Assembly: GCA_017991895.1 (NCBI GenBank)
Contig: JAGOPR010000001.1
Coordinates: forward strand, 13,089-77,088
Source of the DNA: Minisyncoccota bacterium
GTDB taxonomy: Bacteria; Patescibacteriota; Minisyncoccia; Phycocordibacterales; UBA9973
DNA length: 64,000 bases
Direction of reading: 5' to 3'
Position numbers and translations under genes: made by a program. Under the pieces are notes generated by a model. It made no database searches. It had not been told where the DNA came from and worked only from the letters and a program-made list of their open reading frames with translations. Of this stretch, positions 3 to 63,456 are shown one piece after another. The number at the start of each line of letters is the position of its first letter. Within the stretch, counting starts at the first letter, position 1.

Positions 3-986
3 CTCGTAATTGGTCACCAGTCTTTCCTTTGTGTTATGCGTGCCGTCATGAATGGCGTCACAACTGAAGAAAAACTCTATCAATACAGAAACAAATGGCG
101 AATGGGCAATGCGACTACTCGCGAATACACTCTTTCAATTGACCCAGAGGGTGCGGATCTCACTCAGGACGAAGATACACTCGATACATGGTTCTCTTCC
201 GGACTTTGGACATTTTCTACGCTCGGTTGGCCAAATCTTACTAGTCCAGACTTCAAAACCTATCATCCGACAACGATACTCGAAACAGGACACGACACTC
301 TGTTCTTCTGGGTGGCTCGCATGATTCTTATGTCTCAATATCTTGTAGGAGATGTTCCATTTAAAACTGTATATCTACACGGACTCGTTCGAGACGAAAA
401 AGGTAGAAAAATGAGTAAGTCGCTTGGAAATATCGTTGACCCTATCATGCTAATCGACAAGTTCGGTACAGATGCCCTCCGCATGGCAATGATTGTAGGC
501 GTAGGTCCCGGCTCTGACTCAAACCTCGGCGAAGAAAAAATAAAAGCTTACTCAAAATTTGCAAACAAGCTTTGGAACATCGCTCGATTTGTGCACGAGA
601 ATACGAGTAATTTCGATGTAAAAAATATCGACACAAACTCCATCCTTCCTATCGATAAAGAATACATTGCCGAACTTGATGCTCTCGCATCTGAAATAAC
701 CAAAGAAATGAGCGAGTATAAATTTTATATCGTTGCAGAAAAGTTATATCACTATGTGTGGCACACTTTTGCCGATAAAATTATCGAGGAAACAAAAATC
801 AGACTTAGCGGAGAAGACGAGCAAGCTCGACGTTCTGCTCAATCTACTATCTACTATCTACTAGTTACTAACTTGAAATTATTGCATCCATTTATGCCGT
901 ACATCACAGAAGAGCTCTGGCACCTTACATCTCACAAAAAAGATAGTATGCTTATGGTAGAAAAATGGCCGACAGTTGCTAAATAA
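3..986 (+). CDS. valS: Valyl-tRNA synthetase, C-terminal part (gene starts upstream of the window)
   Basis: Open frame from window start; class I aaRS KMSKS motif (KMSKSLGN) and anticodon-binding region resembling ValRS. Confidence 0.8.
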   Translation, partial: LVIGHQSFLCVMRAVMNGVTTEEKLYQYRNKWRMGNATTREYTLSIDPEGADLTQDEDTLDTWFSSGLWTFSTLGWPNLTSPDFKTYHPTTILETGHDTLFFWVARMILMSQYLVGDVPFKTVYLHGLVRDEKGRKMSKSLGNIVDPIMLIDKFGTDALRMAMIVGVGPGSDSNLGEEKIKAYSKFANKLWNIARFVHENTSNFDVKNIDTNSILPIDKEYIAELDALASEITKEMSEYKFYIVAEKLYHYVWHTFADKIIEETKIRLSGEDEQARRSAQSTIYYLLVTNLKLLHPFMPYITEELWHLTSHKKDSMLMVEKWPTVAK

Positions 987-2737: not shown

Positions 2738-2783
2738 GGTTACATAGTAAATACTAAATAGAAAATAGTAAATAGGTATAAAT

Positions 2784-5258: not shown

Positions 5259-7028
5259 TCATTTTGTCTTTTTTACATATGTTGTCTTGGAGGCCTTGGC
5301 AATTTTTTGACGTTCAAGAAAAGATTTTGTATCTTCATCAGGCTCAATTAAATTATGACTAACAAGACGCAAATTTATAGAACTCGGCCGTCGCCCAAGA
5401 ATTACAGCAATTTCCTCAATTGATTTCCCGTTCTTAAACTCGCGCACCAGCACAAAGTCTTCTTCATCCTTCCATGGCTTTCCTGCATTTGGATAAACAG
5501 AACGAATTTTTTCCATTTTTTCAATCCATTCTGGACTTGCTTTGGACTTTTTGATGCTTGATGTTTTGTATTTTTTCTCTTCGATTTTTCCTCCCATTTT
5601 TAATATGAAGCCATGCTCAAGTTTTTCGAGCTCTTCCTTTGAAAGCCTCGAAAACATTTTTTTATTTTCTTCACTTTCGCTTTGAAAATTTTCATCTAGT
5701 GCAAGCACTGCCGGATCCATTGATAACGCATTATCCGAATATCCCACTAGCCTAATACCAGATAGCGTACGTACACGTGAAAGCGCCACATACCCCATTC
5801 CGTATGTAAATGTCTTTGATAAATCTATTTCTGCGCTATCCATGCTCATTCCTTGGCTCTTGTGGATTGTAATAGCCCACGCAAGACGAAGCGGGTATTG
5901 AGTGATTGAGGCCTTAACTCGTCCATTTTCTTCTACCTCCCAGTCCATCGCTCCTACAGTAAGTTTTCTGCCAGTAGAATATATTTCGACGATCGGCTCG
6001 CCTCTGCTATCAAATCCAGAAACTTTTCCTCGCGTCCCATTAAAATATCCGAGTTCGTAGTTGTTTTTTATAAACATGACTTCTGCGCCAATCTTTAGCG
6101 CGAGTCGCTCCGGAGCAAGGCAGGCTTTTTTGAGTGCCTCAACTATAAATTCACTTCCCTTCCCCGCCATTACAAATTCTTTTGTATCTCCAGAAATCTT
6201 TGCGAGTTCCGCATGATTTATAGAATCAACATCAATATTATGTGTATACAACTTGGTCGGAAGTGTTCCGATATTCTCCGCGTTCATTCTGCCTTTTACG
6301 AGAGCCTTATGTGTATCATCCACAGTATTTGTCCGCATTGCATTTAGGATTTCCAGAAATACGTCGTCCTCCTGTCTGTGCTGTTCCGTAAGATAACAAA
6401 TAGCAGGCTTCATCGCGCGCCATGCTCGAGAATGCACCACCATGTCAGATTCAGGTATTTCTTCCTTGATTTCCCCACTATCGTAGTCAATGAATAACTC
6501 GCTTTGAGATTGTATTTTTGATTCACTATTTTCTATTTTCGATTTACTATTTACAGATTTTGTCACAGGCGGTAGCTGAAAAAAATCTCCAGACAAAATC
6601 ACCTGAAGCCCGCCAAACGGCAAATCGTTGCGCTTAAACCTGCGACATACCCGCTCCACCATGTCGAGCCGATGCGCGTGAAGCATAGAAACTTCATCAA
6701 TAATAAGTACTCTCGCTTTTTCAAATCGTTTCCAAAGATACTGCTTTTGCTCAAGTTGTTCGAGCGCAAAATCATCGAGTGTCTCACGTATGCCAATTCC
6801 AGACCATCCATGTATCGTCTGGCCGTTCATATGTGTCGCTGCGATGCCCGTAGACGCGGTTATGGCGACAGGAATCTCATGTTCATCTAGCCATCGTATA
6901 TACTCTCGTAAAGTATGTGTTTTACCGCTCCCAGCCGAACCAGTTAAGTATACGTTGAGGCCTGTCTTCATTATCGCTAGAGCTTCTGTTTGAGTCATAT
7001 ATTGAGTTTGTATTATACACGAGGACAA
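5259..7028 (-). CDS. PIF1/RecD-like ATP-dependent DNA helicase
   Basis: Walker A GSAGSGKT, Walker B LIIDEVSML, C-terminal HKSQGMS motif typical of RecD/Pif1 SF1B helicases. Confidence 0.75.
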   Translation of the reverse strand: MSSCIIQTQYMTQTEALAIMKTGLNVYLTGSAGSGKTHTLREYIRWLDEHEIPVAITASTGIAATHMNGQTIHGWSGIGIRETLDDFALEQLEQKQYLWKRFEKARVLIIDEVSMLHAHRLDMVERVCRRFKRNDLPFGGLQVILSGDFFQLPPVTKSVNSKSKIENSESKIQSQSELFIDYDSGEIKEEIPESDMVVHSRAWRAMKPAICYLTEQHRQEDDVFLEILNAMRTNTVDDTHKALVKGRMNAENIGTLPTKLYTHNIDVDSINHAELAKISGDTKEFVMAGKGSEFIVEALKKACLAPERLALKIGAEVMFIKNNYELGYFNGTRGKVSGFDSRGEPIVEIYSTGRKLTVGAMDWEVEENGRVKASITQYPLRLAWAITIHKSQGMSMDSAEIDLSKTFTYGMGYVALSRVRTLSGIRLVGYSDNALSMDPAVLALDENFQSESEENKKMFSRLSKEELEKLEHGFILKMGGKIEEKKYKTSSIKKSKASPEWIEKMEKIRSVYPNAGKPWKDEEDFVLVREFKNGKSIEEIAVILGRRPSSINLRLVSHNLIEPDEDTKSFLERQKIAKASKTTYVKKTK

Positions 7029-15088: not shown

Positions 15089-15290
15089 TGTGTTTCGAAA
15101 AAAAATTATTTTTTCTTATCCTTCTTTGGCTTTTTTGCCTCCTTCTTATGTGATACTCCTTTTGCCATATGATTAGTAAGTAGGTAGTAGAAAGTAGTTA
15201 GTAGTAAAAATGCGAATGAATTCCTACTATCTACTAATTACTTACTACTAACTTTAAAAGTTAATAATTATGAACATTTAAAGTATATCA

Positions 15291-18768: not shown

Positions 18769-18869
18769 GAATTATTATCTGCATTATTTACACCAACCCC
18801 CGCTCGATGAGCGGGGGTAAGTTTTTGCCTGAATTCAATTCTTAATTTTTAATTCCTAATTCTTAATTA

Positions 18870-18929
18870 GAGTAAGCGTTAAAAAGAAAAAACACCCTTT
18901 CGGGTGTTTTTTCTTTTTAACGCTTACTC
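18870..18929. terminator. 28-bp perfect palindrome hairpin overlapping the rpsI stop (bidirectional terminator)
   Basis: gagtaagcgttaaaaagaaaaaacaccc tttc gggtgttttttctttttaacgcttactc. Confidence 0.7.
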
Positions 18930-22183: not shown

Positions 22184-22284
22184 AATGTTAGTTAGTAGAT
22201 AGTAGTTAGTAATTAGTAGTTTAGTTATTTTCGAATTCGGATTTTATTTCCTACTATCTACTAATTACTAACTACTTACTAGCT

Positions 22285-22665: not shown

Positions 22666-22721
22666 GAAATTAGTTAGTAGATAGTAGTTAGTAATTAGTA
22701 GTAATTAAATTTCAACTGGGC

Positions 22722-28381: not shown

Positions 28382-29500
28382 CTAGACAATTCCACCTCCA
28401 AGACAAATATCCTTGTCATAAAGAACGATGGACTGACCAGAAGCAACCCTTGTTCCATTTTCAAATATCACGGTAGCTGTGTTTTCATCCAAAGTTATGA
28501 CTCTGCATAGCAAATATTCTCCATGGTATCTAATCTGTGCTGTATATTTTTTGTCCTTCTCTGGCGCAAGACCCACCCAACTGCAATTTTCTATTCTGTA
28601 ATTCTCTTCAGTTTTAGTATGACCTTCAGATGAATCATTTTTATTTGAAACCGTGATTGTATTTTTCTCAATATCTTTAGCAACGATATAATATCGTGAG
28701 TCGCTTGGAGTCTTCTTCGTAATAGTAAATCCATGGCGCTCACCGAGAGTAAGGAAAAGCACGCCGTCATGATACCCAACAATTTCCCCTTTTTCATTCA
28801 AAACGTCGCCACGCTGTGATGGAATATAGTGTTCAAGAAATTTTTTGAGGTCCAAATCTCCAAGCATACAAATTCCCTGACTATCCTTTTTTACTGCGTT
28901 AGGTAAGCCAAATTTTTCGGCGAGCTTTCGTACATCTGTTTTCTTCAAATGACCTATTGGAAAAATAACATGCTCCAAGTCCGTACTTGTAAGCCTGTAT
29001 AAAAAATATGCTTGATCTTTTGTAGTGTCTGCTCCTTTTTGAAGTTTGAAGTTTGGTGTTTGATGTTTTACCTGAGCGTAATGTCCCGTCGCAATAAAAT
29101 CTGCGCCATGAGCCTTTGCAAACTCCCAAAAAACTCCAAATTTTATCTCACGATTGCACATAACGTCAGGATTGGGTGTTCTTCCCTTTTTATATTCTTC
29201 AATCATGTATTCTGCTACTGCTTTTTTATATTTCTCCTCAGCATCACACTCGAGAAATGGAATATCAAGAAATGTTGCAACACGCATTGCATCCAAACGG
29301 TCTTCACGGAAAGTACACTCAATAAAATCTGGTTGCCACGTACGGATAAAAACACCGACTACGTTGTAGCCTTGTTGTTTCAAGAGCGCGGCGGAAACGG
29401 CAGAGTCTACCCCGCCTGAAAGCCCCACGAATACGGTTTTGTACGATTCTTTTTTCACTTTCTTGATACTACAGTTGCATGAGCTTTTTGAAAAGCTCAA
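28382..29500 (-). CDS. mnmA: tRNA-specific 2-thiouridylase
   Basis: PP-loop SGGVDS and the conserved MnmA core. Confidence 0.9.
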   Translation of the reverse strand: MSFSKSSCNCSIKKVKKESYKTVFVGLSGGVDSAVSAALLKQQGYNVVGVFIRTWQPDFIECTFREDRLDAMRVATFLDIPFLECDAEEKYKKAVAEYMIEEYKKGRTPNPDVMCNREIKFGVFWEFAKAHGADFIATGHYAQVKHQTPNFKLQKGADTTKDQAYFLYRLTSTDLEHVIFPIGHLKKTDVRKLAEKFGLPNAVKKDSQGICMLGDLDLKKFLEHYIPSQRGDVLNEKGEIVGYHDGVLFLTLGERHGFTITKKTPSDSRYYIVAKDIEKNTITVSNKNDSSEGHTKTEENYRIENCSWVGLAPEKDKKYTAQIRYHGEYLLCRVITLDENTATVIFENGTRVASGQSIVLYDKDICLGGGIV

Positions 29501-31085: not shown

Positions 31086-31173
31086 ATAGCTAGTAAATAG
31101 TAAATAGATAGTAGAAAATAGTAAAATACCTATTACAATTACAGCTTACTCGATTTTTGGCTTTTTAGCTAGG

Positions 31174-32067: not shown

Positions 32068-32091
32068 TTGGATTTTTTTATTTACTACTAT

Positions 32092-32721
32092 CTACTTACT
32101 CTTTCCCTGACTGCGTATTTCTTCAAATATTTCGATGATAATATTGATTGTTTTCTGCAGAATAACCACCCCAATCGTAAACAATAAAATTATAAAAATA
32201 AAATTGCGGACATTGTGACTGATAGAAAGAGCCTTCTGGCTGAATAGATTACCAAGTACAAACATACCTCCGAGCCAGATTATAGAGGAAACCCCTTCCG
32301 CAATGCAGTATATCTTAAAATTTGCCTTTACATATCCTGCAAATATTAATGCAGCATTATTTACTCCATATATAAATTTTGATAGAAATATTGACCAAAA
32401 TGGTCTTTCACGGAAACGAGGCAAGTAATAAAAAACTCTTCGTTCAAAATACTTTAGTATTTGACTATTCGGAAAAGTTTTTCCAAGAAAGCTACCAATA
32501 TAATATCCAAGCACTGTCTTAACTGCGGCCGCAGAGCTAGCAATCGCGAGAGTAGGAAATAGAGAAAATATTTTAAGATGGACCAATATTCCAGCCATAA
32601 TCAAAATAAATTCCCCTTCCCATAGAACACCTAGAAAAAGAATCGCGTAGGCAAGTTCGGGGTTTGTAGTAATAAACGTTGAAAATGGATCGAGAAATTG
32701 GTGCATCCCAGTTAGAAGCAA
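32092..32721 (-). CDS. DedA/VTT-family membrane protein
   Basis: TM topology and composition typical of DedA. Confidence 0.55.
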   Translation of the reverse strand: MLLTGMHQFLDPFSTFITTNPELAYAILFLGVLWEGEFILIMAGILVHLKIFSLFPTLAIASSAAAVKTVLGYYIGSFLGKTFPNSQILKYFERRVFYYLPRFRERPFWSIFLSKFIYGVNNAALIFAGYVKANFKIYCIAEGVSSIIWLGGMFVLGNLFSQKALSISHNVRNFIFIILLFTIGVVILQKTINIIIEIFEEIRSQGKSK

Positions 32722-33154: not shown

Positions 33155-33194
33155 AAACTAGTAAGTAATTAGTAGGTAGTAGTAAGTAGAAATA

Positions 33195-33644: not shown

Positions 33645-33680
33645 ATAGAAAAGTAATTTAGTATATTAGAAATTAGTATA

Positions 33681-34037
33681 TTAGACTTTCGACTCAATTA
33701 ACTTATTTAGCATCCTCAATATTTCCTGCATAAGCTCTTCTATTTCCAAATACTTATCAAGTTTACCAAATTCTAATCTTTTTGCTATTTTTAACTGTGT
33801 CTCAAGTTCTCCGGCTGAACCAAATGAAATAATAAGAAAGTGGGCAAAATCTTTCTTTGTTCCCCGCCTGCTACCCTCAGCAATATTTGATGGTATAGAA
33901 ACTGCACATCTCCGCATTTGAGAAATAATTCCGTACTGCTCCTCTTTGGGAAACTCATATGTTAATCGATAAACCTTCTCTACTAGGTCCATAGATTTTT
34001 GCCAAACGATGAGTTTTTCATAACTATGAACTAACAT
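33681..34037 (-). CDS. Four-helix-bundle protein (23S rRNA IVS-type family)
   Basis: Typical LVHSYEKLIVWQKS...IPSNIAEG signature. Confidence 0.75.
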   Translation of the reverse strand: MLVHSYEKLIVWQKSMDLVEKVYRLTYEFPKEEQYGIISQMRRCAVSIPSNIAEGSRRGTKKDFAHFLIISFGSAGELETQLKIAKRLEFGKLDKYLEIEELMQEILRMLNKLIESKV

Positions 34038-37986: not shown

Positions 37987-38120
37987 ACAAGCTAGGTTTT
38001 AGGTGCTAGGTTTTAGGTGCTAGCTTGAAATACAAACCCAAACACGGTAAACTTTAGTCGCCTCTTATTGTATTACTATACGCTGTTAGCTACAAGCTGA
38101 CAGCAATATCCTATTAACCT

Positions 38121-44315: not shown

Positions 44316-46691
44316 CTAAACAACAATGTTTAGGATCCTTCCTTGGACGTAAATTATCTTCTTCGGTACTTGCCCCGCAAGAGCTTTTTGAACACGATCA
44401 TCAAGCAAAGCGATCTTTTTCACCGCTTCCTCACTTTCATTGCGAGCCACTGTGATGTCACTCCTTATCTTGCCATTTACTTGAATCATTATCTTTACTG
44501 TATCAGAAACAAGTTTTGTCTCATCATATTTGGGCCATGGCGATATATGTACTGAATTCTTTTCACCAAACTCATGCCAAATTTCTTCAGCAACATGCGG
44601 AGCAAATGGTGCAAGTATTTGTATAAACTTTTTAAAGTCTTCAATAAGCACAACTTCCGATTTTTCCAACTCATTCAAACACATCATCATTCCTGATACT
44701 GCTGTATTAAATCCCATGGATTCAATATCCTCCCCAACTTTTTTAATCGTCTGATTTAGAATTATTTCGTACGTATTTTCTTTGCTATTTTCTTTTTGCC
44801 CGCCCGAACGTACCGATTCGGTACGGGCAGGCTCTTTTATTTTGCTTGCAAGCTTCCACACTCTCTCAATAAAGCGACGTGGTCCAATAATTCCATCGGA
44901 ATTCCAAACTACAGCTTGCTCAAAAGGACCCATAAACATCTGGTACATTCGAAGCGTATCCGCACCGTATGTTTTTACGATATCGTCGGGGTTTACTACA
45001 TTACCAAGCGACTTACTCATTTTTATTCCCCCTTCTGCAAGAATAAGCCCGTGACTCGTGCGTTTTGCATAGGGCTCGTGCGTCGGTACAAGCTTCATAT
45101 CATATAGAAATTTGTGCCAGAATCGTGAGTACAGCAAGTGGAGGGTCGTGTGCTCCATTCCGCCGTTGTACCAATCTACCGGAGTCCAATATTTCAATTT
45201 TTTAGCATCAGCAAAAGATTTTTTGTTTTTGGAGTCAGCGTAACGAAGATAATACCAAGAGCTTCCCGCCCAGTTTGGCATTGTATCTGTCTCGCGTTTT
45301 GCTGGACCTTTACAGGTGGGGCATTTCGTATTAACCCATTTAGTAATTATTGCGAGAGGGCTTTCTCCATTGTCTGTCGGAACATATGATTTAACTGGTG
45401 GAAGTACAACAGGAAGATCTTTCTCAGGTACAGCGACATAACCACATTTCTCACAATGGATAATCGGAATCGGCTCGCCCCAGTAACGCTGACGAGAAAA
45501 AACCCAGTCACGAAGTTTAAATTTAGTAACAATTTTACCGCCAAGTTTTTTAGTTATCTGTCCAGCATCTACTAAAGGTTTATCGATTATTGGGAGATTA
45601 TATTTTTCTGCAAATGCTCTATCGCGAGCGTCATGCTCAGGTACTGCCATAATTGCTCCGGTGCCGTAGTGAGGTAGCACATAATCTCCAACCCATACTG
45701 AGATAAGCTCATCGTTTGCGGGATTTATTGCCTTTATTCCCTCGAGTTCAACACCGGTTTTTTCTTTATCTTCAGCTGTTCTTGCTATGTCGTCTTTTTT
45801 CTTTGCTTCAACAATATACTTCTGAACTTCAGATTTATTTACAACAGTAGATAACAAGCTTTCAATAAGTGAATGCTCAGGAGCAAGTACAACATATGTT
45901 GCACCGAATATAGTATCTGCACGTGTCGTAAACACCGTAACAGATTCCTGAATGTTGTTTGAAGTTTGAAGTTTGAAGTTTATTTCACTTCCTTCACTTT
46001 TCCCTATCCAATTTCTCTGTTGAATTTTTACACGCTCTGGGTAGTCAACGTCATCCAAATCTTTATCAAGACGTTCGGCATATTTTGTAATCGCCATCAT
46101 CCACTGATCCTTTTCCTTTTTTTCTGTTGGTGTACCACAGCGCTCACAGGCGCCATCAACAACCTCTTCGTTTGCAAGACCAATCTTATCCTTTGGGCAC
46201 CAATTGATAGTCGTCTTCTTTTTGTATGCAAGCCCCTCTTTAAAAAATTGCAAAAAAATCCATTGTGTCCATTTATAGTACTCGGGATCTGTTGTGTTTA
46301 CTTCGCGAGACCAATCAAATGAAAGCCCTACAGCCTTGAGCTGTTTTCGAAACATATCAGTATTTTTCTTTGTAACAATCTTTGGCTGAACTCCAGTTTT
46401 AATTGCGTACTGTTCTGTAGGTAGCCCAAAAGCATCCCAGCCCATTGGATAAAGGACATTTTTCCCTTCCATTCTTCGTTTACGCGCAACAATATCTAAT
46501 GCCGTGTAGCTTCGAATGTGACCAGTGTGAAGACCGGCGCCAGAAGGAAACGGAAACTCTACAAGAATAAAGGATTTTTCTTGGTCGTTGTCTTTAGCGT
46601 TGTAGAGCTTTTTCTTTTCCCAGTCTTTCTGCCACTTTGATTCTATCTTCAAATGATCATATTCCTTCTGTTTTTTGGGCATTTTTTGCAT
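44316..46691 (-). CDS. leuS: Leucyl-tRNA synthetase
   Basis: HIGH motif (HTGH), KMSKS motif, CP1 editing domain. Confidence 0.97.
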   Translation of the reverse strand: MQKMPKKQKEYDHLKIESKWQKDWEKKKLYNAKDNDQEKSFILVEFPFPSGAGLHTGHIRSYTALDIVARKRRMEGKNVLYPMGWDAFGLPTEQYAIKTGVQPKIVTKKNTDMFRKQLKAVGLSFDWSREVNTTDPEYYKWTQWIFLQFFKEGLAYKKKTTINWCPKDKIGLANEEVVDGACERCGTPTEKKEKDQWMMAITKYAERLDKDLDDVDYPERVKIQQRNWIGKSEGSEINFKLQTSNNIQESVTVFTTRADTIFGATYVVLAPEHSLIESLLSTVVNKSEVQKYIVEAKKKDDIARTAEDKEKTGVELEGIKAINPANDELISVWVGDYVLPHYGTGAIMAVPEHDARDRAFAEKYNLPIIDKPLVDAGQITKKLGGKIVTKFKLRDWVFSRQRYWGEPIPIIHCEKCGYVAVPEKDLPVVLPPVKSYVPTDNGESPLAIITKWVNTKCPTCKGPAKRETDTMPNWAGSSWYYLRYADSKNKKSFADAKKLKYWTPVDWYNGGMEHTTLHLLYSRFWHKFLYDMKLVPTHEPYAKRTSHGLILAEGGIKMSKSLGNVVNPDDIVKTYGADTLRMYQMFMGPFEQAVVWNSDGIIGPRRFIERVWKLASKIKEPARTESVRSGGQKENSKENTYEIILNQTIKKVGEDIESMGFNTAVSGMMMCLNELEKSEVVLIEDFKKFIQILAPFAPHVAEEIWHEFGEKNSVHISPWPKYDETKLVSDTVKIMIQVNGKIRSDITVARNESEEAVKKIALLDDRVQKALAGQVPKKIIYVQGRILNIVV

Positions 46692-46726
46692 TTCTAATTC
46701 GCTATTTACTATTTTCTATTTAGTAT

Positions 46727-47758
46727 TTACTGCTTAAGTGGTTTTGGGTACGGAGGATATATGTCCTTATCAATTGTACGTGTAAAACATGTTCGTCCAG
46801 ATTGGTGATCCCACGATTCGTTTACTCCACCACTAGGATACGGATAAGACGAAACAGCAACGTCACCATTCATTACAGCAGGCATCGGCATAATATCACG
46901 CCCTCCTCCGTATTCTTGCCAACCTTTCGGCATAGGTTCTGCAAACGTACCACAAAGTTCGAATGACAATTTTCCAGTAGTTTTATATTCATAAACCATA
47001 CCCTTTTCAAACTCCGGATCAACTGGCAAGGAAAATCCGCTCATTGGGTTATTCATTTCAGTGAGAGTTTCAGGCAACTTCTCCTTTGTCTGCCAGAAAT
47101 TTATAACTTGGTATTGAATAGACTGCAAGTCTTGTACACGGCGTTCATCGAGACGAAGACTGCGTTGTTTAAATGGGCTCCCCATAACAACGAAACTCAT
47201 GACAAGCGCGAAAACAACAAGTAATGTGGCGACACTCGCCATGATAATTCTGTGACCCTTACACAATACTTTATCGACAAGCTCGTTGTAATAATAAAAT
47301 CCAGAAAGTCCCGCTGTTACGAATACGGCTAGAACTTTTAGAATAAAGCGAACCGTTATCTCACCAGAGACAAAATATCGCACAAGCGTGACAAGGTCGG
47401 TGATAATTACGATGCTCGCAAGAAAAAGTACCAAGTAAAGCATCCATTTTTTTATAACTGCATCAGTACTGCCGAGGCCATCGCTTACAATGCGTGTCCA
47501 AATTTTTGAAAGAATCAAAAATACAGGAAACACTATAATCAACGTCGCTAGTGCAGTACGCATAGATTCATAACTATATGTATTGTATCCGTATGTGTAA
47601 GTTCCATTTAATGCATCGGGAAAATTCTTCGCAAGGGTTTCAAATACAAGATTTAAAAAAGATGTAACTGTCGCGATGAGCGAGACTAGAACACCCAGTG
47701 ATATAAAGAAGAATTTGGGCGTCATTTTCTGTCCTGTTTGTGCGGGTGTGGTTTCCAT
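46727..47758 (-). CDS. Hypothetical polytopic membrane protein
   Basis: ORF with several TM helices. Confidence 0.4.
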   Translation of the reverse strand: METTPAQTGQKMTPKFFFISLGVLVSLIATVTSFLNLVFETLAKNFPDALNGTYTYGYNTYSYESMRTALATLIIVFPVFLILSKIWTRIVSDGLGSTDAVIKKWMLYLVLFLASIVIITDLVTLVRYFVSGEITVRFILKVLAVFVTAGLSGFYYYNELVDKVLCKGHRIIMASVATLLVVFALVMSFVVMGSPFKQRSLRLDERRVQDLQSIQYQVINFWQTKEKLPETLTEMNNPMSGFSLPVDPEFEKGMVYEYKTTGKLSFELCGTFAEPMPKGWQEYGGGRDIMPMPAVMNGDVAVSSYPYPSGGVNESWDHQSGRTCFTRTIDKDIYPPYPKPLKQ

Positions 47759-53648: not shown

Positions 53649-53756
53649 GCAGGCAATATATCACAAGAACAAGGAACATTAAAGCGCCGAGTATTTGATT
53701 TTTGGTGTTTGGTGTTTTTATGATTTACCTTTTGTTTGCTATAATAAAATGCATAT

Positions 53757-55784: not shown

Positions 55785-55855
55785 TTGGGTAGTATACTGT
55801 AACTGTATTACTTGTTAAAGCTCTAAGCTAAAAGCTGACAGCTATAAGCTATTTT

Positions 55856-57644: not shown

Positions 57645-59990
57645 TTATTCTGACAATACGTTTCGTAGCACCTCTTCAGGAATTTCTCGTATTTTCTTTT
57701 CGCCAACTGGTTTCTCTTGTTCTGGTTTTTTTTCTTCTTGTATTGGAGGAACTGGTGTGGGTTCAATTTTTACCGGTTCAGGAATTTTTTTCTCTTCTAC
57801 TTTTTGTACATCTCCGACTTTGGGCGCACTATTTGTAGCTTTTGCAATTGCACTAGCGAGCGCTGACATACGTTCTTCTGAAGCCTGCTTTGATGCGAAC
57901 ACTTTTTGAGTAGGAACTACAGATGATTCTGCTTCTGGTTTTTTAAGTGAAGAAAGAGAAATTGTTTGCTTTTCTGGTTCTGGATTTCCGTTTTCTGGTT
58001 TCGTAACGTTAGAATTCTTTTCGTCTTTAATATTTGCACTTTGCATGTTTTTTGAGAGAGCATCTCCAAGAGCTGATTTCAAAATACTCTGAAGACCTTC
58101 GTGATCAGGAGTCGCACGCTCCTTTGCCGGTCGAATATTTTTTGGTCTTGGTTCAGAAACTGGCGTAGATGATGGAGCAGGTACTGGCGAAACAGGAGCT
58201 TGCTGAGTATGAGTCGCCATTGGTTTTGCCACTGACGCAACAGGTCGAACTTGTTGAGGTGGGACACTAGGGATCGAGACCGTAGGACTAGGTCGTGGAG
58301 TGGTAACCGGAGGCGGAACAGTTACGGGCCTCGACATTTGCGGTCGAGACACGAACGCTGGTGGAACTGGTTTCTTCAAAACAGCTGGACTTCGAGTCGG
58401 AGAAAGTTTTGCTGCGTCAGAATCTCCTTCAGGTAAATATTCGATACCGAGACCAGCAAGAGCTGAGTACGATTGTGGCTCGAGAGCCCGAGCACGTGAA
58501 GTACCTTTGACCGGTTTCATTTCCCCGCTCTTAATTTTCGCAATACAGTCCTTACAATACACAGGTCGGCCTTCTTCCGGCTCAAATGGAACAGTAGTTT
58601 CTTTTCCACAAGAAGAACATACGGCTTTAAATTTGCCTGTCTCTTCAAGACCAACAAGCATTCCACTCCAATCATTGATTTCTTTTTCAACAATTTCTTT
58701 CGGACGAGCGTATAGCTTTCGAGACATTTCTATAATCTCTTGAGCAACAGTACTTTCAACGGGGATTTTAAATGGTGTGAGTGTTTTTGCAGAAAAGGGT
58801 CGGCTTGTTACCCCATCTACCATAAGCTTTAGATAGATTGTGTAGTTTGGAAGGTTCACCATGTCTTGCGGTGTAAATTCCGGCTCAAATTCTTGCTCAA
58901 GATATTCGGCATCTGCGGCACCGATGCGGAAAATGATTATCGTTCCAACGTTACCGAAAACAGCATCACGAACTGCCTCAGAATCTTTTGTGACAAGCTG
59001 AGCAATGTATTGGTGAGCGAGAGTGAGGTTTAGGCGGTATTTACGAGCTTCAGAGAGAATACTCGCAAATGCGTCTGTAACGAAGTTTTGGAATTCGTCC
59101 ACATACAAATAGAAATCTTTACGGTCATCTTCAGGAATACGCACGCGCTCCATGGCGGCGAGCTGGAGCTTGGTAATAATCATACCTCCCAAGAGTGCTG
59201 AGTTGTCTTCACCGATACGTCCCTTTGAAACGTTCACGAGAAATATTTTTCCAGTGTTCATCAAACTAAAAAGATCGAGTGTGGATTTTGATTGTCCGAC
59301 AACATTACGCACGATAGAAGTTGATAGGAATTGTCCAACTTTGTTTTGAATCGGAGCGATAGCTTCGTTACGATATTGATCACGCCAGTTTTCATATTCA
59401 TGAACCCAGAAGGCTTTAATCACTGGATCTTTCAAATTATTGATGACTACCTGACGGTAGTCTTTGTCCACAAGAAGACGCGGAATACCAAGGAGTGTAG
59501 AGCCAGGCGTATCAACAAGCGCCAAGATCGCGTTGTTCAAAATATATTCCATACGAGCAGACCACGCGTTTGCCCAAATCTTTGTAAAAATTCCCATCAG
59601 ACCGGACGCCACAAGATGCTTGTAGCGTGGATCGTCGAGCTGAAGCACATTGAAACCGACGTGGTAATCCGCGTCAGCTGGGTTGAAATATATAACATCT
59701 TTTGCACGGTGAGCAGGGATTGTCGCAAGAATTGATTCGACAAGTTCTCCGTGAGGGTCGACAACGCAAACACCTTCGCCGTTCCAGACGTTTTGAACAA
59801 TCATATTTGCTAGAAGCGCAGATTTTCCGGAGCCGGATTTACCCAACAGGTACATGTGTTGCCGGCGATCTTTTCTTTTGATGCCGAAAACTTGTTCGTT
59901 GGCTCGGAAATTCGTCTTTGCCAAATACGTAAGATTTTTATTAAAGGCTATCCCGTCAGGGAGAAAGTCCATATGCCGTATATTATACAA
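57645..59990 (-). CDS. FtsK/HerA-superfamily ATPase (TraD/VirD4/AAA_10-like) with C-terminal zinc ribbon and Pro-rich disordered tail (paralog A)
   Basis: Walker A GKSGSGKS, VVDPHGE, Walker B YLYVDEFQNF; CSSCGKE...YCKDC; long P/S/T/V-rich tail. Confidence 0.6.
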   Translation of the reverse strand: MYNIRHMDFLPDGIAFNKNLTYLAKTNFRANEQVFGIKRKDRRQHMYLLGKSGSGKSALLANMIVQNVWNGEGVCVVDPHGELVESILATIPAHRAKDVIYFNPADADYHVGFNVLQLDDPRYKHLVASGLMGIFTKIWANAWSARMEYILNNAILALVDTPGSTLLGIPRLLVDKDYRQVVINNLKDPVIKAFWVHEYENWRDQYRNEAIAPIQNKVGQFLSTSIVRNVVGQSKSTLDLFSLMNTGKIFLVNVSKGRIGEDNSALLGGMIITKLQLAAMERVRIPEDDRKDFYLYVDEFQNFVTDAFASILSEARKYRLNLTLAHQYIAQLVTKDSEAVRDAVFGNVGTIIIFRIGAADAEYLEQEFEPEFTPQDMVNLPNYTIYLKLMVDGVTSRPFSAKTLTPFKIPVESTVAQEIIEMSRKLYARPKEIVEKEINDWSGMLVGLEETGKFKAVCSSCGKETTVPFEPEEGRPVYCKDCIAKIKSGEMKPVKGTSRARALEPQSYSALAGLGIEYLPEGDSDAAKLSPTRSPAVLKKPVPPAFVSRPQMSRPVTVPPPVTTPRPSPTVSIPSVPPQQVRPVASVAKPMATHTQQAPVSPVPAPSSTPVSEPRPKNIRPAKERATPDHEGLQSILKSALGDALSKNMQSANIKDEKNSNVTKPENGNPEPEKQTISLSSLKKPEAESSVVPTQKVFASKQASEERMSALASAIAKATNSAPKVGDVQKVEEKKIPEPVKIEPTPVPPIQEEKKPEQEKPVGEKKIREIPEEVLRNVLSE

Positions 59991-60026
59991 GCTTTAAAGC
60001 TGTAAAGCTATATAGCTGTTAAGCTT

Positions 60027-61727: not shown

Positions 61728-61764
61728 TTGGATTTTCTATTAACTACTATCTACTAATTACTAA

Positions 61765-63420
61765 CTAGTTAATATTCTGCTTATAACATGCCTCGCAGGC
61801 AATCTTCGTATATCCCCATTCCTTTGGGTAGTACGCACCCACCTCATTATTGCAGTAAATGCAATTATAAGATTCCGCTTTCCACGGAGCCATCGTGCGC
61901 ATACGGTTTTTTGTACGGACATCAAAATGGACACGAGGAAGCGCAATTCCCTTTCGTGAAAGGAATTTGAATTCTTCAGGTGCGATGTTGAATCGCCAGC
62001 CAGTTTCTGGACAAATAAGTGCCTGCTTAGAGATGGTTTCGTCTACTTCCGTAATACTATTTGGCAATTCGCTCGTTGGAATACCGTCTACTTGGCTCTC
62101 AACGTTGTCATTCCAGTACCCGCCTCTAGCAAGTACAAATTCCTTTGTGATTTCTGGCATATAAATCGAAGCCGTAGTGAGATTATAATCACAAAGCCCC
62201 ATGTTATACGGCAAAAACTGCCCATATTCACCATGTGCTTTCATGTCAGCGATTATCTTTTCACGAAGTGCCTCATATTCTTCTTTTGTATATTGCCTAT
62301 TTAAAATACAATATTTTTTCTTTCGAAGCCCAACACATCCAAAACAATATTCAACTTCAAGACACTCATCGAGATATTCTGAATAGCGCCCTTCGCTCCA
62401 TGAGGAATAATGAAGTCCGTACCCTCCAGTGCAACAACTGTCATTTCCGCACACCTCGACTTTCCATGAACCAAGAAGATCAATGCAGTCCTTTGCTTCA
62501 CGTCCACGAAGACAATTCACACAATTTTCTGATTCTTCCCATCCGAAAACGTTCTGGCAATTGTTGCAATCTGCAAGGTATGTTCCTTTCGATGCATAGG
62601 TGTTTAGTGTGAAATTCTCTCGATGCACTGTCTCTTCTCGCAAGATTTCAACATAGCGTGCCTTTAGCTTTTCAAGTCCTGCGTATGAACTCATGTCATA
62701 TTCTTTAAGCTTTTCAAAATATTCTTCTTTTGTGTACTGCACATTTTCGATACAATATTGCGCACCGCGGAGATTCCAACACATCGTACAATTGCTGCAG
62801 TTTCGGCAGTCGTACAAAAATCGTGAGTTCATACAGTCACGGCAATTTCTTGAAAAATAAAGTTCGAAGGAGTGAAAGGAATAGGTACACTCGTAGCAAT
62901 TGTCTAGGGTAAATGCATGGGAGATATCCATCGAATCTTTCGCATCAAAAGAACGATATCCATACAAAAGATTTTCGGAACGAGCAACTGAGCGCGTGAG
63001 GTAACAATTTTTAGAATCCCAGACATCGTCACACCAATCGCAAAGTAAGTTGTTTGTTCCTTGTTGGTGCGGACGTGGTACTTTTTCTTGCAATTCTTTT
63101 AGCTGGTCAAAAAACGGTCGTGACTCGTCATAGTCTTGCCCAAAATCCATGGCATCCCATGCATCGCTCCACCACTCTTTGGAATGGTAAATCGGATAGC
63201 GCACGCTCGCCGGAAGCATCGTTATAAGGCTTTCTCCTGAAAGTGACGATGTAGCTTTACGAAATTTACCGAATGGCCAAAATGCAAACTGCTGTGCCAT
63301 ACGGCAAGAAAAACAATTGAGTGGTATTTCAATTGCTACTTTTTCGTACAAAAGAAACTCAGGGGGTGTGATAGTAAAATCTTTCTTACAGCTCTGGCAT
63401 TGTTTCGTTTCTGTTTGCAT
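61765..63420 (-). CDS. Large cysteine-rich multi-zinc-ribbon protein (551 aa), paralog 2
   Basis: Same architecture and conserved YTKEEY modules as 60027..61727. Confidence 0.55.
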   Translation of the reverse strand: MQTETKQCQSCKKDFTITPPEFLLYEKVAIEIPLNCFSCRMAQQFAFWPFGKFRKATSSLSGESLITMLPASVRYPIYHSKEWWSDAWDAMDFGQDYDESRPFFDQLKELQEKVPRPHQQGTNNLLCDWCDDVWDSKNCYLTRSVARSENLLYGYRSFDAKDSMDISHAFTLDNCYECTYSFHSFELYFSRNCRDCMNSRFLYDCRNCSNCTMCWNLRGAQYCIENVQYTKEEYFEKLKEYDMSSYAGLEKLKARYVEILREETVHRENFTLNTYASKGTYLADCNNCQNVFGWEESENCVNCLRGREAKDCIDLLGSWKVEVCGNDSCCTGGYGLHYSSWSEGRYSEYLDECLEVEYCFGCVGLRKKKYCILNRQYTKEEYEALREKIIADMKAHGEYGQFLPYNMGLCDYNLTTASIYMPEITKEFVLARGGYWNDNVESQVDGIPTSELPNSITEVDETISKQALICPETGWRFNIAPEEFKFLSRKGIALPRVHFDVRTKNRMRTMAPWKAESYNCIYCNNEVGAYYPKEWGYTKIACEACYKQNIN

Positions 63421-63456
63421 AGTATTCTCTATTTACCATTTACTATTTAGTATTTA

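What the first reader, a model, noticed from the sequence alone, without database searches (positions are those of the whole stretch)
22187..22282. Recurrent TAGTAG/CTACTA leader element in front of ribosomal-protein and other minus-strand genes, sometimes as inverted pairs
The sequence cctactatctactaattactaactac, or its reverse complement gtagttagtaattagtagatagtagg, recurs at 15172-15254, 22187-22282, 22669-22710, 31086-31130, 32068-32100, 33155-33200, 46692-46735, 61728-61764 and 63421-63456. A 32-nt stretch is identical at 22189-22220 and 22673-22704, immediately upstream of rpsK and rpsM. At 15172-15254 and 22187-22282 the two orientations face each other and could fold into long imperfect hairpins in the transcript. 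The element abuts start codons that have no Shine-Dalgarno. It is too conserved to be mere AT-rich low complexity. It could be an inter-cistronic processing or stability hairpin, a translation-initiation enhancer in an SD-less system, or a binding site for a regulator.
Basis: seen in the sequence. Interest (0 to 1): 0.55.

Follow-up and report, generated by a model that had tools for sequence, protein, structure and literature searches.

The report
Seven-base repeat arrays between genes
The TAGTAG/CTACTA "leader" is one family of short seven-base tandem repeats that fill the gaps between genes in this tiny-genome (CPR) bacterium; similar repeats are known in other bacteria, and they behave more like fast-changing filler DNA than like a dedicated control signal.

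Summary
YTACTAW x2 (one mismatch allowed) gives 29 matches against 0.47 expected, at 12 sites, 11 of them non-coding. A 33-nt run is identical upstream of rpsK and rpsM. The two inverted pairs fold into 20-28 bp hairpins.

The motif is only the commonest of several families of imperfect period-7 (sometimes 8-9) arrays of about 30 nt. The window holds 23 such arrays, 18 of them in the 10.7% of DNA that is non-coding. The host is a Parcubacteria/Nomurabacteria-like MAG with no Shine-Dalgarno signal.

In relatives the same operon spacers are usually 1-25 nt. An array adds 30-45 nt and an inverted pair 70-115 nt. Sister genomes carry different cassettes in the same spacer.

Arrays also lie between convergent terminators and in frame inside protein loops (MnmA, LeuRS, a PIF1 helicase, a class I tRNA synthetase). 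At least 33 different units occur, with no conserved core and no fixed distance to the ATG.

Best reading: heptanucleotide simple-sequence-repeat cassettes that arise at DNA level and are filtered at mRNA level, with the G-poor strand preferred 5' of start codons.

This is a new member of a known but unexplained class: TAACTGA repeats, cyanobacterial heptamer repeats, LSSRs. A dedicated leader or regulator role is not supported, but not excluded.

The parts
22187..22223 (-). CTACTAA-family heptamer array. mRNA sense is CUACUAAUUACUAACUACUAUCUACUAACUAAC. It ends 2-3 nt before the rpsK ATG (22183) and is the 3' arm of the rpsM-rpsK inverted pair.
   Evidence: The 33 nt at 22188-22220 are identical to 22670-22702.
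22248..22282 (-). The same family in opposite orientation (mRNA sense UAG-type). It starts 2 nt after the rpsM stop codon and is the 5' arm of the hairpin.
   Evidence: Fold -29.8 kcal/mol, z = -4.9. A strain with an identical rpsM CDS has this whole spacer replaced by a period-8 inverted pair.
22666..22707 (-). Single CTACTAA-family array filling the rpmJ-rpsM spacer and abutting the rpsM ATG (22665).
   Evidence: The same 33-nt array is present in L016, but the sister genome L012 has an AATTCTT array there.
15174..15253 (.). Inverted pair (TAGTAAG-type at 15174-15207, CTACTAA-type at 15224-15253). It lies in a convergent gap between the csp terminator (15051-15086) and the stop of the 8xMP gene (15291). 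It is not upstream of any start codon.
18834..18870 (.). AATTCTT-family array lying between the rpsI terminator and the terminator of the convergent gene (18796-18818).
2740..2778 (-). CTATTTA-family array between the stop of the DinB-like gene (2784) and the ATG of the next gene (2738).
31087..31125 (-). TTTACTA-family array abutting the obg ATG (31085).
   Evidence: A relative (L087) has an unrelated element with 22-bp terminal inverted repeats in this spacer.
32068..32100 (-). Short UAG-type remnant (GUAAGUAGAUAGUAGUAAAUA) that contains the stop of the VTT-domain gene, upstream of the MYG1-like gene. The spacer is 2 nt in relative L087.
33155..33192 (-). CTTACTA/CTACTAC array between yqeY-like and holin-like genes, 7 nt before the ATG (33154).
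   Evidence: L087 keeps it with about 12% point differences and a 1-nt indel.
46697..46736 (-). TAGTAAA-type array (UAG-type in mRNA sense) that overlaps the stop of the DUF5671 gene and ends 5 nt before the leuS ATG (46691).
61736..61771 (-). CTACTAA family, UAG-type in mRNA sense. It overlaps the upstream stop codon and lies 8 nt before the ATG at 61727.
63422..63463 (-). TAGTAAA-type array that overlaps the upstream stop codon, 1 nt before the ATG at 63420.
840..871 (+). Three exact ATCTACT units inside the anticodon-binding domain of a class I tRNA synthetase, in frame (peptide QSTIYYLLVTN).
6520..6556 (-). TAGTAAA-type array in frame inside the PIF1-like helicase, just after the GDFFQLPPV motif.
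29035..29071 (-). CTTCAAA/CACCAAA array in frame in the variable loop of MnmA (peptide VKHQTPNFKLQ).
   Evidence: The same loop carries other period-7 arrays in L008, L021, L034, L044 and L045.
45948..45986 (-). 3.6 exact CTTCAAA units in frame in a variable loop of LeuRS (peptide EINFKLQTSNN).
37991..38023 (-). ACCTAGC/ACCTAAA array (14-nt super-unit) directly upstream of the DivIC-like gene (ATG at 37986).
55818..55852 (.). AAGCTAT-family array in the divergent gap between the UDG-family gene and a 67-aa ORF.
59989..60025 (-). AAGCTNTA array (period 8) filling the spacer upstream of the T4SS-coupling-protein-like gene.
   Evidence: The same family occurs in the flanks of the contig.
33645..33684 (-). 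Period-8 array (UAAUAUAC-type) filling the spacer upstream of the yqeY-like gene.
53701..53717 (.). Short TTTGGTG array (2.4 exact units) in a divergent intergenic gap.

Best explanation
The TAGTAG/CTACTA element is one family of short, imperfect heptanucleotide tandem-repeat arrays, 3-6 units and about 30 nt long. They occur singly or as inverted pairs. They litter the non-essential DNA of this Parcubacteria (Nomurabacteria-like) genome and some of its relatives.

Shown:
- The only shared property across families is the 7-nt period (occasionally 8-9).
- The arrays are extra DNA relative to the very short ancestral spacers.
- They turn over by whole-cassette gain, loss and replacement, far faster than point substitution.
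- They also survive between terminators and in frame in variable protein loops.

Inferred:
- They arise at DNA level by slipped-strand or template-switch replication with a 7-nt register. They then spread by copying to non-homologous sites and by homologous recombination between lineages.
- Selection in a 90%-coding genome leaves them only where 30-100 extra bases are harmless.
- At mRNA level there is a filter rather than a dedicated function. Immediately 5' of a start codon, in an organism without an SD signal, the orientation giving a G-poor and therefore weakly structured A/C/U leader is preferred.
- The opposite, stop-codon-rich orientation ends up at or over the upstream stop codon.
- Inverted pairs are by-products that can fold, and may incidentally couple or dampen expression of the downstream cistron.
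For: Period specificity:
- With at least 18 of 21 matches, the window has 9 period-7 and 1 period-8 arrays. There are none at other periods from 4 to 12, and none in shuffles.
- Over 1.36 Mb (the window plus relatives' loci) the counts are period 7 = 22, periods 8, 9 and 12 = 3 each, and 0-1 in shuffles.

Diversity without a core:
- 33 canonical units occur.
- Mismatches spread evenly over the seven positions (combined p = 0.79).

Insertion character:
- rpmJ-rpsM, rpsM-rpsK, rpoA-rplQ and rplM-rpsI spacers are mostly 1-25 nt in the 80 relatives' loci.
- They are 30-56 nt where a single array is present and 70-115 nt where a pair is present.

Fast cassette turnover:
- L012 and L016 are 86% identical at four-fold sites.
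- They nevertheless carry different arrays between the rpmJ stop and position -5 of the rpsM ATG.
- Their rplM-rpsI spacers are 4 nt versus an 87-nt inverted pair that rewrites the last rplM codons.
- A strain with a 100% identical rpsM CDS has a different paired cassette.
- The closest relatives L006, L007, L009 and L010 have none or almost none.

Dispersal: one period-9 inverted-pair family sits in four different spacers, and in frame in the MnmA loop of L045 and L075.

Locations that are not leaders:
- Between convergent terminators and in a convergent gap.
- In frame in MnmA, LeuRS, the PIF1 helicase and a tRNA synthetase.

Slippage signature:
- The copy-number histogram for YTACTAW arrays in metagenomes is roughly geometric: 79, 28, 8, 3....
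- L021 MnmA carries (AATTACG)x3, an in-frame 21-nt expansion of the AATTACG-AATTAAA sequence that related genomes have in this loop.

mRNA-level filter:
- The sense strand has C>G in 27 arrays next to an ATG and G>C in 10 (p = 0.008). All G>C arrays overlap the upstream stop codon.
- An independent metagenome set gives 21 against 6 (p = 0.006).

Literature:
- Mrazek 2007, as summarised in PMC4679880, found heptanucleotide repeats to be the commonest long simple-sequence-repeat class and proposed polymerase slippage.
- TAACTGA repeats of 2-6 copies lie just upstream of start codons, including inside r-protein operons without an RBS.
Against: - Intergenic arrays are imperfect (about 80-85% matches). 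Exact runs of 3 or more units are rare. No copy-number difference was seen among samples of the same strain. Ongoing slippage is therefore not directly observed.
- A 33-nt imperfect array is identical at two spacers 480 nt apart. The same array occurs in a genome whose synonymous sites are saturated relative to the window (0.46 identity). I attribute the cross-genome match to recombination. At all 6 sites where L012 and L016 differ in the last 40 nt of rpmJ, L016 matches the window sequence (my reading). Purifying selection on the sequence would also fit.
- The strand bias and the tight abutment to ATGs could reflect a real positive function, not just tolerance.
- No enzyme or mechanism that explains the number 7 was identified.
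Confidence: 0.55

Rival explanations
1. SD-independent translation-initiation enhancer or standby site. The G-free A/C/U heptad array keeps the 30 nt in front of the ATG unstructured. It may be bound by a single-strand RNA binder (ribosomal protein S1, or cold-shock-domain proteins with their 6-7 nt footprint) that recruits ribosomes in a lineage lacking SD/anti-SD pairing.
For: - Arrays end 0-11 nt before the ATG in 38 cases.
- The G-poor strand is preferred as sense: 27 against 10 here, and 21 against 6 in unrelated contigs.
- There is no SD signal, and G is depleted at -12 to -1.
- A Parcubacteria subgroup lacks the anti-SD motif (PMC9297842).
- The same proposal was made for TAACTGA repeats (PMC4679880) and for Nostoc heptamers (10.1101/2022.06.06.494920).
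- A csp gene is present at 14693-14890.
- From my own knowledge, not tested here: the G-poor TMV omega leader enhances SD-independent translation via S1.
Against: - Most genes lack arrays, and orthologues in relatives use 1-25 nt spacers.
- About a quarter of ATG-proximal arrays are in the opposite, G-containing orientation.
- Arrays also occur between terminators and inside ORFs.
- There is no conserved core and no fixed spacing to the ATG.
- Cassettes of unrelated sequence replace each other in sister genomes.
Confidence: 0.2
2. For the inverted pairs, a functional RNA hairpin. It could be an RNase III processing or stability site. Alternatively it could be a translational-coupling stem whose 5' arm, starting 0-6 nt after the upstream stop codon, is melted by the terminating ribosome to free the region in front of the next ATG.
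For: - Hairpins of 20-28 bp with z from -3 to -5.7 occur at window 22187-22282 and 15172-15254, and in L003, L008, L011 and L082.
- The rpsM-rpsK spacer keeps a hairpin with quite different sequences in the window, L003, L011, L082, L008/L012, L052/L063 and L059.
- The arms span exactly from stop to start.
Against: - The antisense strand folds as well or better: 42 G-U pairs against 15, with several stems 8-15 kcal/mol stronger in antisense. This is the opposite of what selection on the mRNA stem predicts.
- One pair lies in a convergent gap with no downstream gene.
- Many relatives have 2-20 nt rpsM-rpsK spacers and no hairpin.
- There is no U-tract, so these are not intrinsic terminators, whereas canonical GC-rich terminators exist elsewhere in the window.
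- Alignment-based covariation was uninformative because of repeat-register ambiguity.
Confidence: 0.1
3. Binding arrays for a sequence-specific heptad-reading protein. On DNA these would be operators of the omega or MetJ ribbon-helix-helix type. On RNA they would resemble HutP sites (UAG-N4 repeats) or TRAP sites. Either way they would give global regulation.
For: - The architecture is 3-6 contiguous 7-nt boxes in direct and inverted arrangement.
- Many units contain TAG or CTA at 7-nt spacing.
- From my own knowledge, not tested here: omega binds 7-bp heptads in direct or inverted order, and HutP binds UAG triplets separated by 4 nt.
Against: - 33 different units occur, and at least five families in one 64-kb window.
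- There is no conserved core within units.
- There is no excess of 4-bp palindromes (p = 0.13).
- Sites lie inside operons, inside ORFs and between terminators rather than at promoters.
- Both orientations occur on mRNA.
Confidence: 0.07
4. A true miniature mobile element (REPIN, MITE or RPE-like) moved by a dedicated transposase, rather than a product of slippage and recombination.
For: - The same imperfect cassette families sit at non-homologous sites and in different genomes, including in-frame insertions in MnmA.
- Singlets and inverted doublets occur, as for REP and REPIN (PMC3116915).
- Load is genome-specific.
Against: - No target-site duplication or sharp conserved termini were seen at the L012/L016 empty and filled sites.
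- Single arrays are not palindromic.
- No transposase or RAYT-like gene turned up among the window proteins scanned or annotated, though that coverage is incomplete.
- One cross-genome match is explained by a homologous-recombination tract.
Confidence: 0.15

Closest known systems
TAACTGA heptamer direct repeats of marine Beggiatoaceae, some Cyanobacteria and Bacteroidetes (MacGregor 2015, PMC4679880)
   Same: - Tandem 7-nt units in 2-6 copies.
- Strongly intergenic and ending within a few nt of start codons.
- Found inside ribosomal-protein operons and in spacers without a canonical RBS.
- A few copies inside ORFs.
- No predicted structure for single arrays, and function unknown.
   Different: - There, one unit (TAACTGA) dominates and related heptamers are rarely repeated. 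Here there are many units (33 in the clade).
- Only one indirect repeat was reported there. Here inverted pairs that fill whole spacers are common.
- The host here is a CPR/Parcubacteria lineage.
- Cassette replacement between sister genomes is documented here.
Contiguous heptamer repeats near start codons and promoters in Nostoc PCC 7120, and cyanobacterial STRR sequences (bioRxiv 10.1101/2022.06.06.494920; STRR from my own knowledge)
   Same: - Several distinct heptamer units per genome, for example (TTCAAAA)3 and (GACYAAT)8.
- They lie within about 30-100 nt of start codons of many unrelated genes, in both orientations, with an unresolved role.
- TTCAAAA resembles the window's CTTCAAA arrays.
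   Different: - Cyanobacterial arrays can be much longer and more perfect.
- Deletion experiments there showed effects on regulator access. Nothing experimental exists for the CPR arrays.
Long simple sequence repeats (LSSR) with 5-11 nt units (Mrazek et al. 2007, as summarised in PMC4679880)
   Same: - Heptanucleotide units are the most abundant class.
- Distribution among genomes is sporadic.
- The proposed origin is polymerase slippage with a 7-nt register. This matches the period specificity and the genome-specific load seen here.
   Different: LSSRs are defined as statistically long, mostly perfect runs. The arrays here are short and 15-25% degenerate, and they also occur as inverted pairs.
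REP/REPIN elements (PMC3116915) and Rickettsia palindromic elements / MITEs (PMC10969869)
   Same: - Short dispersed intergenic repeats occurring as singlets and as hairpin-forming inverted doublets.
- Some copies are inserted in frame in protein-coding genes, as for RPEs.
   Different: - The units here are tandem heptads, not palindromic REP sequences with a GTAG head.
- No RAYT or transposase, target-site duplication or defined termini were found.
Heptanucleotide contingency repeats in 5' regions of Haemophilus influenzae hmw genes (PMC12721329)
   Same: A 7-nt simple sequence repeat lies between promoter and start codon, with RNA structure and RNase III involved in the outcome (abstract only).
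   Different: Those are perfect, hypermutable arrays in surface-protein genes. Here the arrays are imperfect, identical across samples of one strain, and sit next to housekeeping genes.

Membership tests
Intergenic heptanucleotide tandem repeats next to start codons (TAACTGA / Nostoc heptamer / LSSR class) | Tandem direct repeats with a 7-nt unit, in excess over other periods | tested here: met
   Period 7 stands out, with 0 at the other non-multiple-of-3 periods and 0 in shuffles.
Intergenic heptanucleotide tandem repeats next to start codons (TAACTGA / Nostoc heptamer / LSSR class) | Short arrays (about 2-6 copies) enriched in non-coding DNA, typically ending a few nt upstream of a start codon | tested here: met
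   18 of 23 arrays are non-coding, p = 6e-14. Distance to the ATG is -4 to +11 nt for 38 arrays.
Intergenic heptanucleotide tandem repeats next to start codons (TAACTGA / Nostoc heptamer / LSSR class) | Spacers that carry them lack a canonical Shine-Dalgarno site | tested here: met
Intergenic heptanucleotide tandem repeats next to start codons (TAACTGA / Nostoc heptamer / LSSR class) | One dominant unit sequence per genome (TAACTGA sub-type only) | tested here: not met
   At least five unit families occur in the window and 33 in the clade. It is a member of the broad class, not of the TAACTGA sub-type.
Shine-Dalgarno-like rRNA-complementary initiation element | Motif at a fixed distance (about 5-10 nt) from the start codon | tested here: not met
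   TACTA, CTAA and ACTA spread from -40 to -6 with no peak.
Shine-Dalgarno-like rRNA-complementary initiation element | Complementarity to the 3' tail (or another accessible segment) of the organism's 16S rRNA | not testable with these tools
   No rRNA was found in the window, in the +-10 kb flanks or in the 80 relatives' loci.
Intrinsic (Rho-independent) terminator | GC-rich stem followed by a U-tract | tested here: not met
   The stems are A/U-rich and have no U-tract. Canonical terminators are found elsewhere in the window.
REP/REPIN | Each unit is itself an imperfect palindrome with a conserved GTAG-type head, and is mobilised by a RAYT transposase | tested here: not met
   Single arrays use three-letter alphabets and cannot self-pair. 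No RAYT or transposase appears among the scanned or annotated genes. The whole genome was not available.
REP/REPIN | Inverted doublets forming hairpins, dispersed at many intergenic sites | tested here: met
Ribbon-helix-helix heptad operators (omega / MetJ type) | Contiguous 7-8 bp boxes sharing one consensus recognised by one repressor, placed at promoters | tested here: not met
   The periodic architecture is present. But there are many unrelated units, no conserved core, and the locations are inside operons, inside ORFs and between terminators.
Contingency-locus SSR (phase variation) | Perfect repeats with copy-number polymorphism within a population | tested here: not met
   The arrays are imperfect. 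They are 100% identical across assemblies from different samples. Read-level data were not available.
Known structured RNA family (Rfam) | Match to a curated covariance model | tested here: not met
   0 hits at gathering threshold in the window and flanks.

The most novel reading that the evidence does not exclude
The heptad arrays are a lineage-specific substitute for Shine-Dalgarno-based initiation in anti-SD-less Parcubacteria. A G-free leader would be read in 7-nt register by an abundant single-strand binder (cold-shock-domain protein or S1), or would pair with a non-canonical rRNA segment. The stop-to-start inverted pairs would act as ribosome-opened coupling hairpins that keep r-protein cistrons stoichiometric. 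The cassettes would then be exchangeable because only period and base composition matter, not sequence.
Probability: 0.13. Interest if true: 0.7.

Novelty: new member of a known kind. Interest (0 to 1): 0.4.

Why it matters
Heptanucleotide repeats next to start codons have been noted in sulfur bacteria, cyanobacteria and Bacteroidetes for years, with no agreed origin or role.

This finding places them in a CPR/Parcubacteria genome, where they make up about 9% of all intergenic DNA. There is no SD signal, first genes look leaderless, and operon spacers are otherwise 1-25 nt.

That gives an unusually clean natural experiment:
- Sister genomes show empty, single-array and paired-array states of the same spacer.
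- The same loop of MnmA repeatedly hosts arrays.

This helps to separate mutational origin from function. It warns annotators that long ORF extensions, odd C-termini and loop insertions in CPR genes can be repeat cassettes. It also provides concrete test cases for SD-independent initiation and translational coupling.

If the arrays are only tolerated filler, the result is ordinary.

Tried and rejected
1. SD substitute at fixed spacing: rejected. No positional peak.
2. Promoter: rejected.
   - No excess of sigma-70-like sites (52 against 46.8 expected), and none lie in the arrays.
   - By eye, the -10-like hexamers in arrays lack the key A2/T6 bases or sit too close to the ATG.
   - Real -10 boxes sit 6-9 nt upstream of first-gene ATGs.
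3. Intrinsic terminator: rejected.
4. Known RNA family, tRNA or tmRNA: none found.
5. Conserved core plus variable spacer within units, the signature of a protein-binding array: not supported (p = 0.79).
6. Excess of 4-bp palindromes (restriction- or operator-like) in units: not significant (p = 0.13).
7. Selection for the sense-strand hairpin through G-U wobble: the trend is the opposite.
8. Alignment-based covariation of the period-9 hairpin family: uninformative because of repeat-register ambiguity.
9. A fixed array length of about 31 nt: this is largely a detection-threshold effect. Copy numbers in the metagenome set decay roughly geometrically.
10. Phase variation: no copy-number differences among assemblies of the same strain.
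11. Retrieving the 16S 3' end to test alternative anti-SD pairing: failed. No rRNA was present in any sequence held.
12. Functional coherence of neighbouring genes: none. They include r-proteins, Obg, tRNA synthetases, a holin-like gene, UDG, T4SS-like genes and unknowns.
13. Literature search for the unit sequences or for such repeats in Parcubacteria/Patescibacteria: nothing found in the library.
Full report
**1. What is there**

The window is part of contig JAHZTO010000157.1 of MAG GCA_020049755.1. It has 40% GC and genes mostly on the minus strand. Its RpoA is 65-84% identical to that of MAGs labelled Candidatus Nomurabacteria, Paceibacteria or Parcubacteria, some of them mislabelled Saccharibacteria. 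The host is therefore a CPR/Patescibacteria bacterium.

The finding's region lies inside the infA-rpmJ-rpsM-rpsK-rpsD-rpoA-rplQ-rplM-rpsI operon.

The repeat is real:
- YTACTAWYTACTAW with at most 1 mismatch matches 29 times against 0.47 expected. The matches fall at 12 sites, 11 of them non-coding.
- The quoted 26-mer recurs three times with at most 2 mismatches, against 0 expected.
- A 33-nt run is identical at 22188-22220 and 22670-22702, directly upstream of rpsK and rpsM.
- The two inverted pairs fold at -29.8 and -24.3 kcal/mol, with z about -4.5 to -4.9.

**2. The motif is one case of something more general**

Tandem Repeats Finder lists about 20 period-7 arrays of roughly 4.5 copies, with different units. 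These include TAGTTAG/CTACTAA, TAGTAAA, AATTCTT, GCTAGGT, AAGCTAT, TTTGGTG and GTTTGAA.

- A strict autocorrelation scan (at least 18 of 21 matches) finds 9 period-7 and 1 period-8 arrays in the window. It finds none at other periods from 4 to 12, and none in shuffles.
- Over 1.36 Mb (the window plus 80 related species' loci), period 7 again stands out: 22, against 3 for periods 8, 9 and 12, and 0-1 in shuffles.
- In the window, 18 of 23 arrays lie in the 10.7% of DNA that is non-coding (p = 6e-14). They make up 9.4% of all intergenic bases.
- The flanks of the same contig continue at the same density.

**3. Translation context**

Upstream regions show no Shine-Dalgarno signal.
- G is 5-13% at positions -12 to -1.
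- T is 62-68% at position -1.
- The region from -10 to -2 is A-rich.
- TATAAT-like words are the most enriched 5-mers at -30 to -6 in the more distant relatives. Many first genes in the window have a -10-like box 6-9 nt before the ATG, which suggests leaderless or very short-leader mRNAs.

A subgroup of Parcubacteria is reported to lack the anti-SD motif (PMC9297842). TACTA-type words have no preferred distance from the ATG, so the repeat is not an SD replacement in the usual sense.

**4. The arrays are extra DNA with fast cassette turnover**

In most of the 80 relatives the spacers are short. rpmJ-rpsM is 2-8 nt, rpsM-rpsK 2-25 nt, rpoA-rplQ 1-30 nt and rplM-rpsI 1-20 nt. Where a single array is present the spacer is 30-56 nt. 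Where an inverted pair is present it is 70-115 nt.

The closest relatives by RpoA (L006, L007, L009, L010) have essentially no arrays, while L008, L011, L012 and L016 have many. The load is therefore genome-specific.

L012 and L016 are sister genomes, with 86% identity at four-fold sites and r-proteins 98-100% identical.
- Their 124-nt infA-rpmJ spacer differs at one base. The rpmJ-rpsM cassette, however, is swapped exactly between the stop codon and position -5 of the ATG. L012 has an AATTCTT array and L016 a CTACTAA array.
- rplM-rpsI is 4 nt in L012. In L016 it is an 87-nt period-9 inverted pair that also rewrites the last codons and the stop of rplM.

A strain whose rpsM CDS is 100% identical to the window has the rpsM-rpsK spacer replaced by a different, period-8 inverted pair.

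The L016 array upstream of rpsM is identical over 33 nt to the window's, although synonymous sites between the two genomes are saturated (0.46 identity). At all six sites where L012 and L016 differ in the last 40 nt of rpmJ, L016 matches the window sequence (my reading). I take this as a homologous-recombination tract that carried the array allele between lineages.

**5. Places where a leader function is impossible**

- Array 18834-18870 lies between the rpsI terminator and the terminator of the convergent gene.
- The pair at 15172-15254 lies in a convergent gap next to the csp terminator.
- Four arrays are in frame inside genuine ORFs:
  - a class I tRNA synthetase anticodon-binding helix (840-871);
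  - the PIF1-like helicase (6520-6556);
  - the variable loop of MnmA (29035-29071);
  - a loop of LeuRS (45948-45986).
- The MnmA loop is a recurrent host. Period-7 arrays with other units occur there in L008, L021, L034, L044 and L045.
- The period-9 inverted-pair family that fills spacers in L008, L012, L016, L059 and L074 sits in frame in that loop in L045 and L075.

This shows dispersal to non-homologous sites, with survival wherever extra sequence is tolerated.

**6. Tests for a specific binding site or a selected RNA structure**

- The arrays comprise 33 canonical units.
- Mismatches within arrays are spread evenly over the seven positions, with no conserved core (p = 0.79).
- 4-bp palindromes are not enriched (p = 0.13).
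- For 17 inverted pairs the antisense strand folds as well or better than the mRNA strand. G-U pairs number 42 against 15, and several stems are 8-15 kcal/mol stronger in antisense. This argues against selection for a stable mRNA stem.
- Alignment-based covariation was uninformative because of register ambiguity.
- The stems lack U-tracts, while canonical GC-rich terminators exist elsewhere.
- There are no Rfam or tRNA hits.

**7. Evidence for an mRNA-level filter**

Among 38 arrays that abut an ATG, the sense strand has C>G in 27 and G>C in 10 (p = 0.008). Every G>C (UAG/UAA-rich) array overlaps the upstream stop codon.

A scan of metagenome contigs for (YTACTAW)x3 hit the 120-locus limit. 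The contigs range from 29% to 68% GC, and the arrays are often next to other heptamer arrays or inverted partners.
- A start codon follows the array within 20 nt in the CTA sense in 21 cases, against 6 in the TAG sense (p = 0.006).
- Copy numbers decay roughly geometrically: 79, 28, 8, 3....

The polarity is therefore reproducible outside this clade. The apparent length of about 31 nt is mostly a detection threshold.

**8. Interpretation**

The best-supported reading (confidence about 0.55) has three parts:
- These are heptanucleotide simple-sequence-repeat cassettes generated at DNA level. Slippage or template switching with a 7-nt register would generate them, as proposed for LSSRs.
- They are spread by copying and by homologous recombination.
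- They are retained only in the few permissive places of a 90%-coding genome.

The mRNA level adds a filter. The G-poor, weakly structured orientation is favoured just 5' of start codons in an SD-less organism, and the stop-rich orientation ends at the upstream stop.

Steps shown: period specificity, insertion character, cassette turnover, non-leader locations, unit diversity, strand bias.

Steps inferred: the slippage mechanism, the reason for the number 7, and neutrality.

Rivals:
- SD-independent enhancer or standby site bound by S1 or Csp: 0.2.
- Dedicated miniature mobile element: 0.15.
- Functional hairpin for processing or coupling: 0.1.
- Heptad-reading regulator: 0.07.

**9. Comparison with known systems**

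The closest described phenomena are these:
- TAACTGA repeats of Beggiatoaceae, Cyanobacteria and Bacteroidetes. They have 2-6 copies, lie just upstream of start codons, occur inside r-protein operons, lack an RBS, and have unknown function (PMC4679880).
- Contiguous heptamer repeats near start codons in Nostoc PCC 7120 (bioRxiv 10.1101/2022.06.06.494920).
- The LSSR class.

The present arrays meet the defining features of that broad class: period 7, short arrays, intergenic and ATG-proximal, no SD. They differ in having many unit families, frequent stop-to-start inverted pairs, in-frame copies in protein loops, and a CPR host.

REP/REPIN and RPE/MITE elements resemble them only in lifestyle. 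They fail on unit structure, and no transposase was found.

I found no description of such repeats in Parcubacteria/Patescibacteria in the searchable library. That is absence from this library, not proof of absence.

**10. Verdict**

The interpretation as a dedicated leader or regulatory element is only partly supported. This is a new member of a known, still unexplained class, of moderate interest. Its main value is as a clean comparative system for asking whether such repeats are junk or SD-independent initiation aids.

Noticed in passing
window-wide, e.g. 8746-8765, 12469-12490, 47870-47888, 53735-53756: Many first genes of operons have an extended -10-like box (TGnTATAAT or TAtAAT) ending 6-9 nt before the ATG, and T at position -1 in 62-68% of genes. 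TATAAT-like 5-mers are the most enriched words at -30 to -6 in the relatives. This suggests widespread leaderless or very short-leader mRNAs in this clade.
   Followed up: partly
window 22833-22938 (infA-rpmJ spacer); the same spacer in L006, L007, L010, L011, L012, L016: A conserved segment (GGCTCTACGGATATTGAGTTG) persists in the roughly 100-124-nt infA-rpmJ spacer across species whose synonymous sites are saturated. It differs at only one base between L012 and L016. It could be a structured leader or attenuator. It has no Rfam hit.
   Followed up: no
window 29035-29071 and the MnmA loop (between TGHYA and KDQ) in about 40 related loci: This loop varies from 14 to 56 residues. It repeatedly hosts repeat or hairpin-like insertions: period-7 arrays, a period-9 inverted pair in L045 and L075, and GC-rich palindromic inserts in L057, L068, L080 and L083. 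It looks like an insertion hot spot comparable to in-frame palindromic elements in Rickettsia.
   Followed up: partly
L087 2745-2934 (MYG1-obg spacer of a related strain): A 222-nt spacer is bounded by a perfect 22-bp inverted repeat (GGTAGAATCCCTGTTAAAAATAA ... TTATTTTTAACAGGGATTCTAC). This MITE-like insertion occupies the place where the window has a heptamer array.
   Followed up: no
L008 5170-5197 and L012 13109-13136: An identical 28-mer, GTATACCGTATACTAAATACTGTATACT (GTATAC palindromes at 7-nt spacing), sits 6 nt upstream of ORFs of different length at non-syntenic positions in two species. It may be a genuine operator rather than filler.
   Followed up: no
window 48158-48289: A 21-nt tandem repeat of 6.3 copies (TTCAAGAAGACGTTGAAGAAA, 79% matches) lies inside overlapping ORFs 47889-48443 (+) and 48121-48486 (-). 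It probably encodes a 7-residue protein repeat.
   Followed up: no
window 3999-4522; L218 6327-7263: These gene-free stretches of about 520 and 940 nt are unusual in a 90%-coding genome. They have no Rfam or tRNA hit. They could hold an unannotated RNA or a decayed gene.
   Followed up: no
window 36-986 (3' part of a 910-aa gene; L218 7263-9995): The class I aminoacyl-tRNA synthetase carries a histidine-phosphatase (His_Phos_1) domain hit between its catalytic-domain hits, as well as three exact ATCTACT units in its anticodon-binding domain.
   Followed up: no
window 57645-63978 and L215 8492-9964: A cluster of T4SS coupling-protein/HerA-like ATPase genes (TrwB/TraG-D, DUF87) sits beside large proteins with no Pfam match. 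Heptamer or octamer arrays fill every spacer between them.
   Followed up: no
window 33681-34037: A bAvd / 23S-rRNA-intervening-sequence-protein family gene (PF05635/PF22296) has no reverse transcriptase nearby, so it is probably not part of a diversity-generating retroelement here.
   Followed up: no
window 2784-3998: A Y-family (DinB/ImpB) translesion polymerase gene lies immediately upstream of array 2740-2778. This is probably coincidence, but such polymerases are slippage-prone.
   Followed up: no
L012 17429-17519: A poly-G/poly-C low-complexity run lies close to the end of the fetched locus. It is probably an assembly artefact and should be ignored in repeat counts.
   Followed up: no
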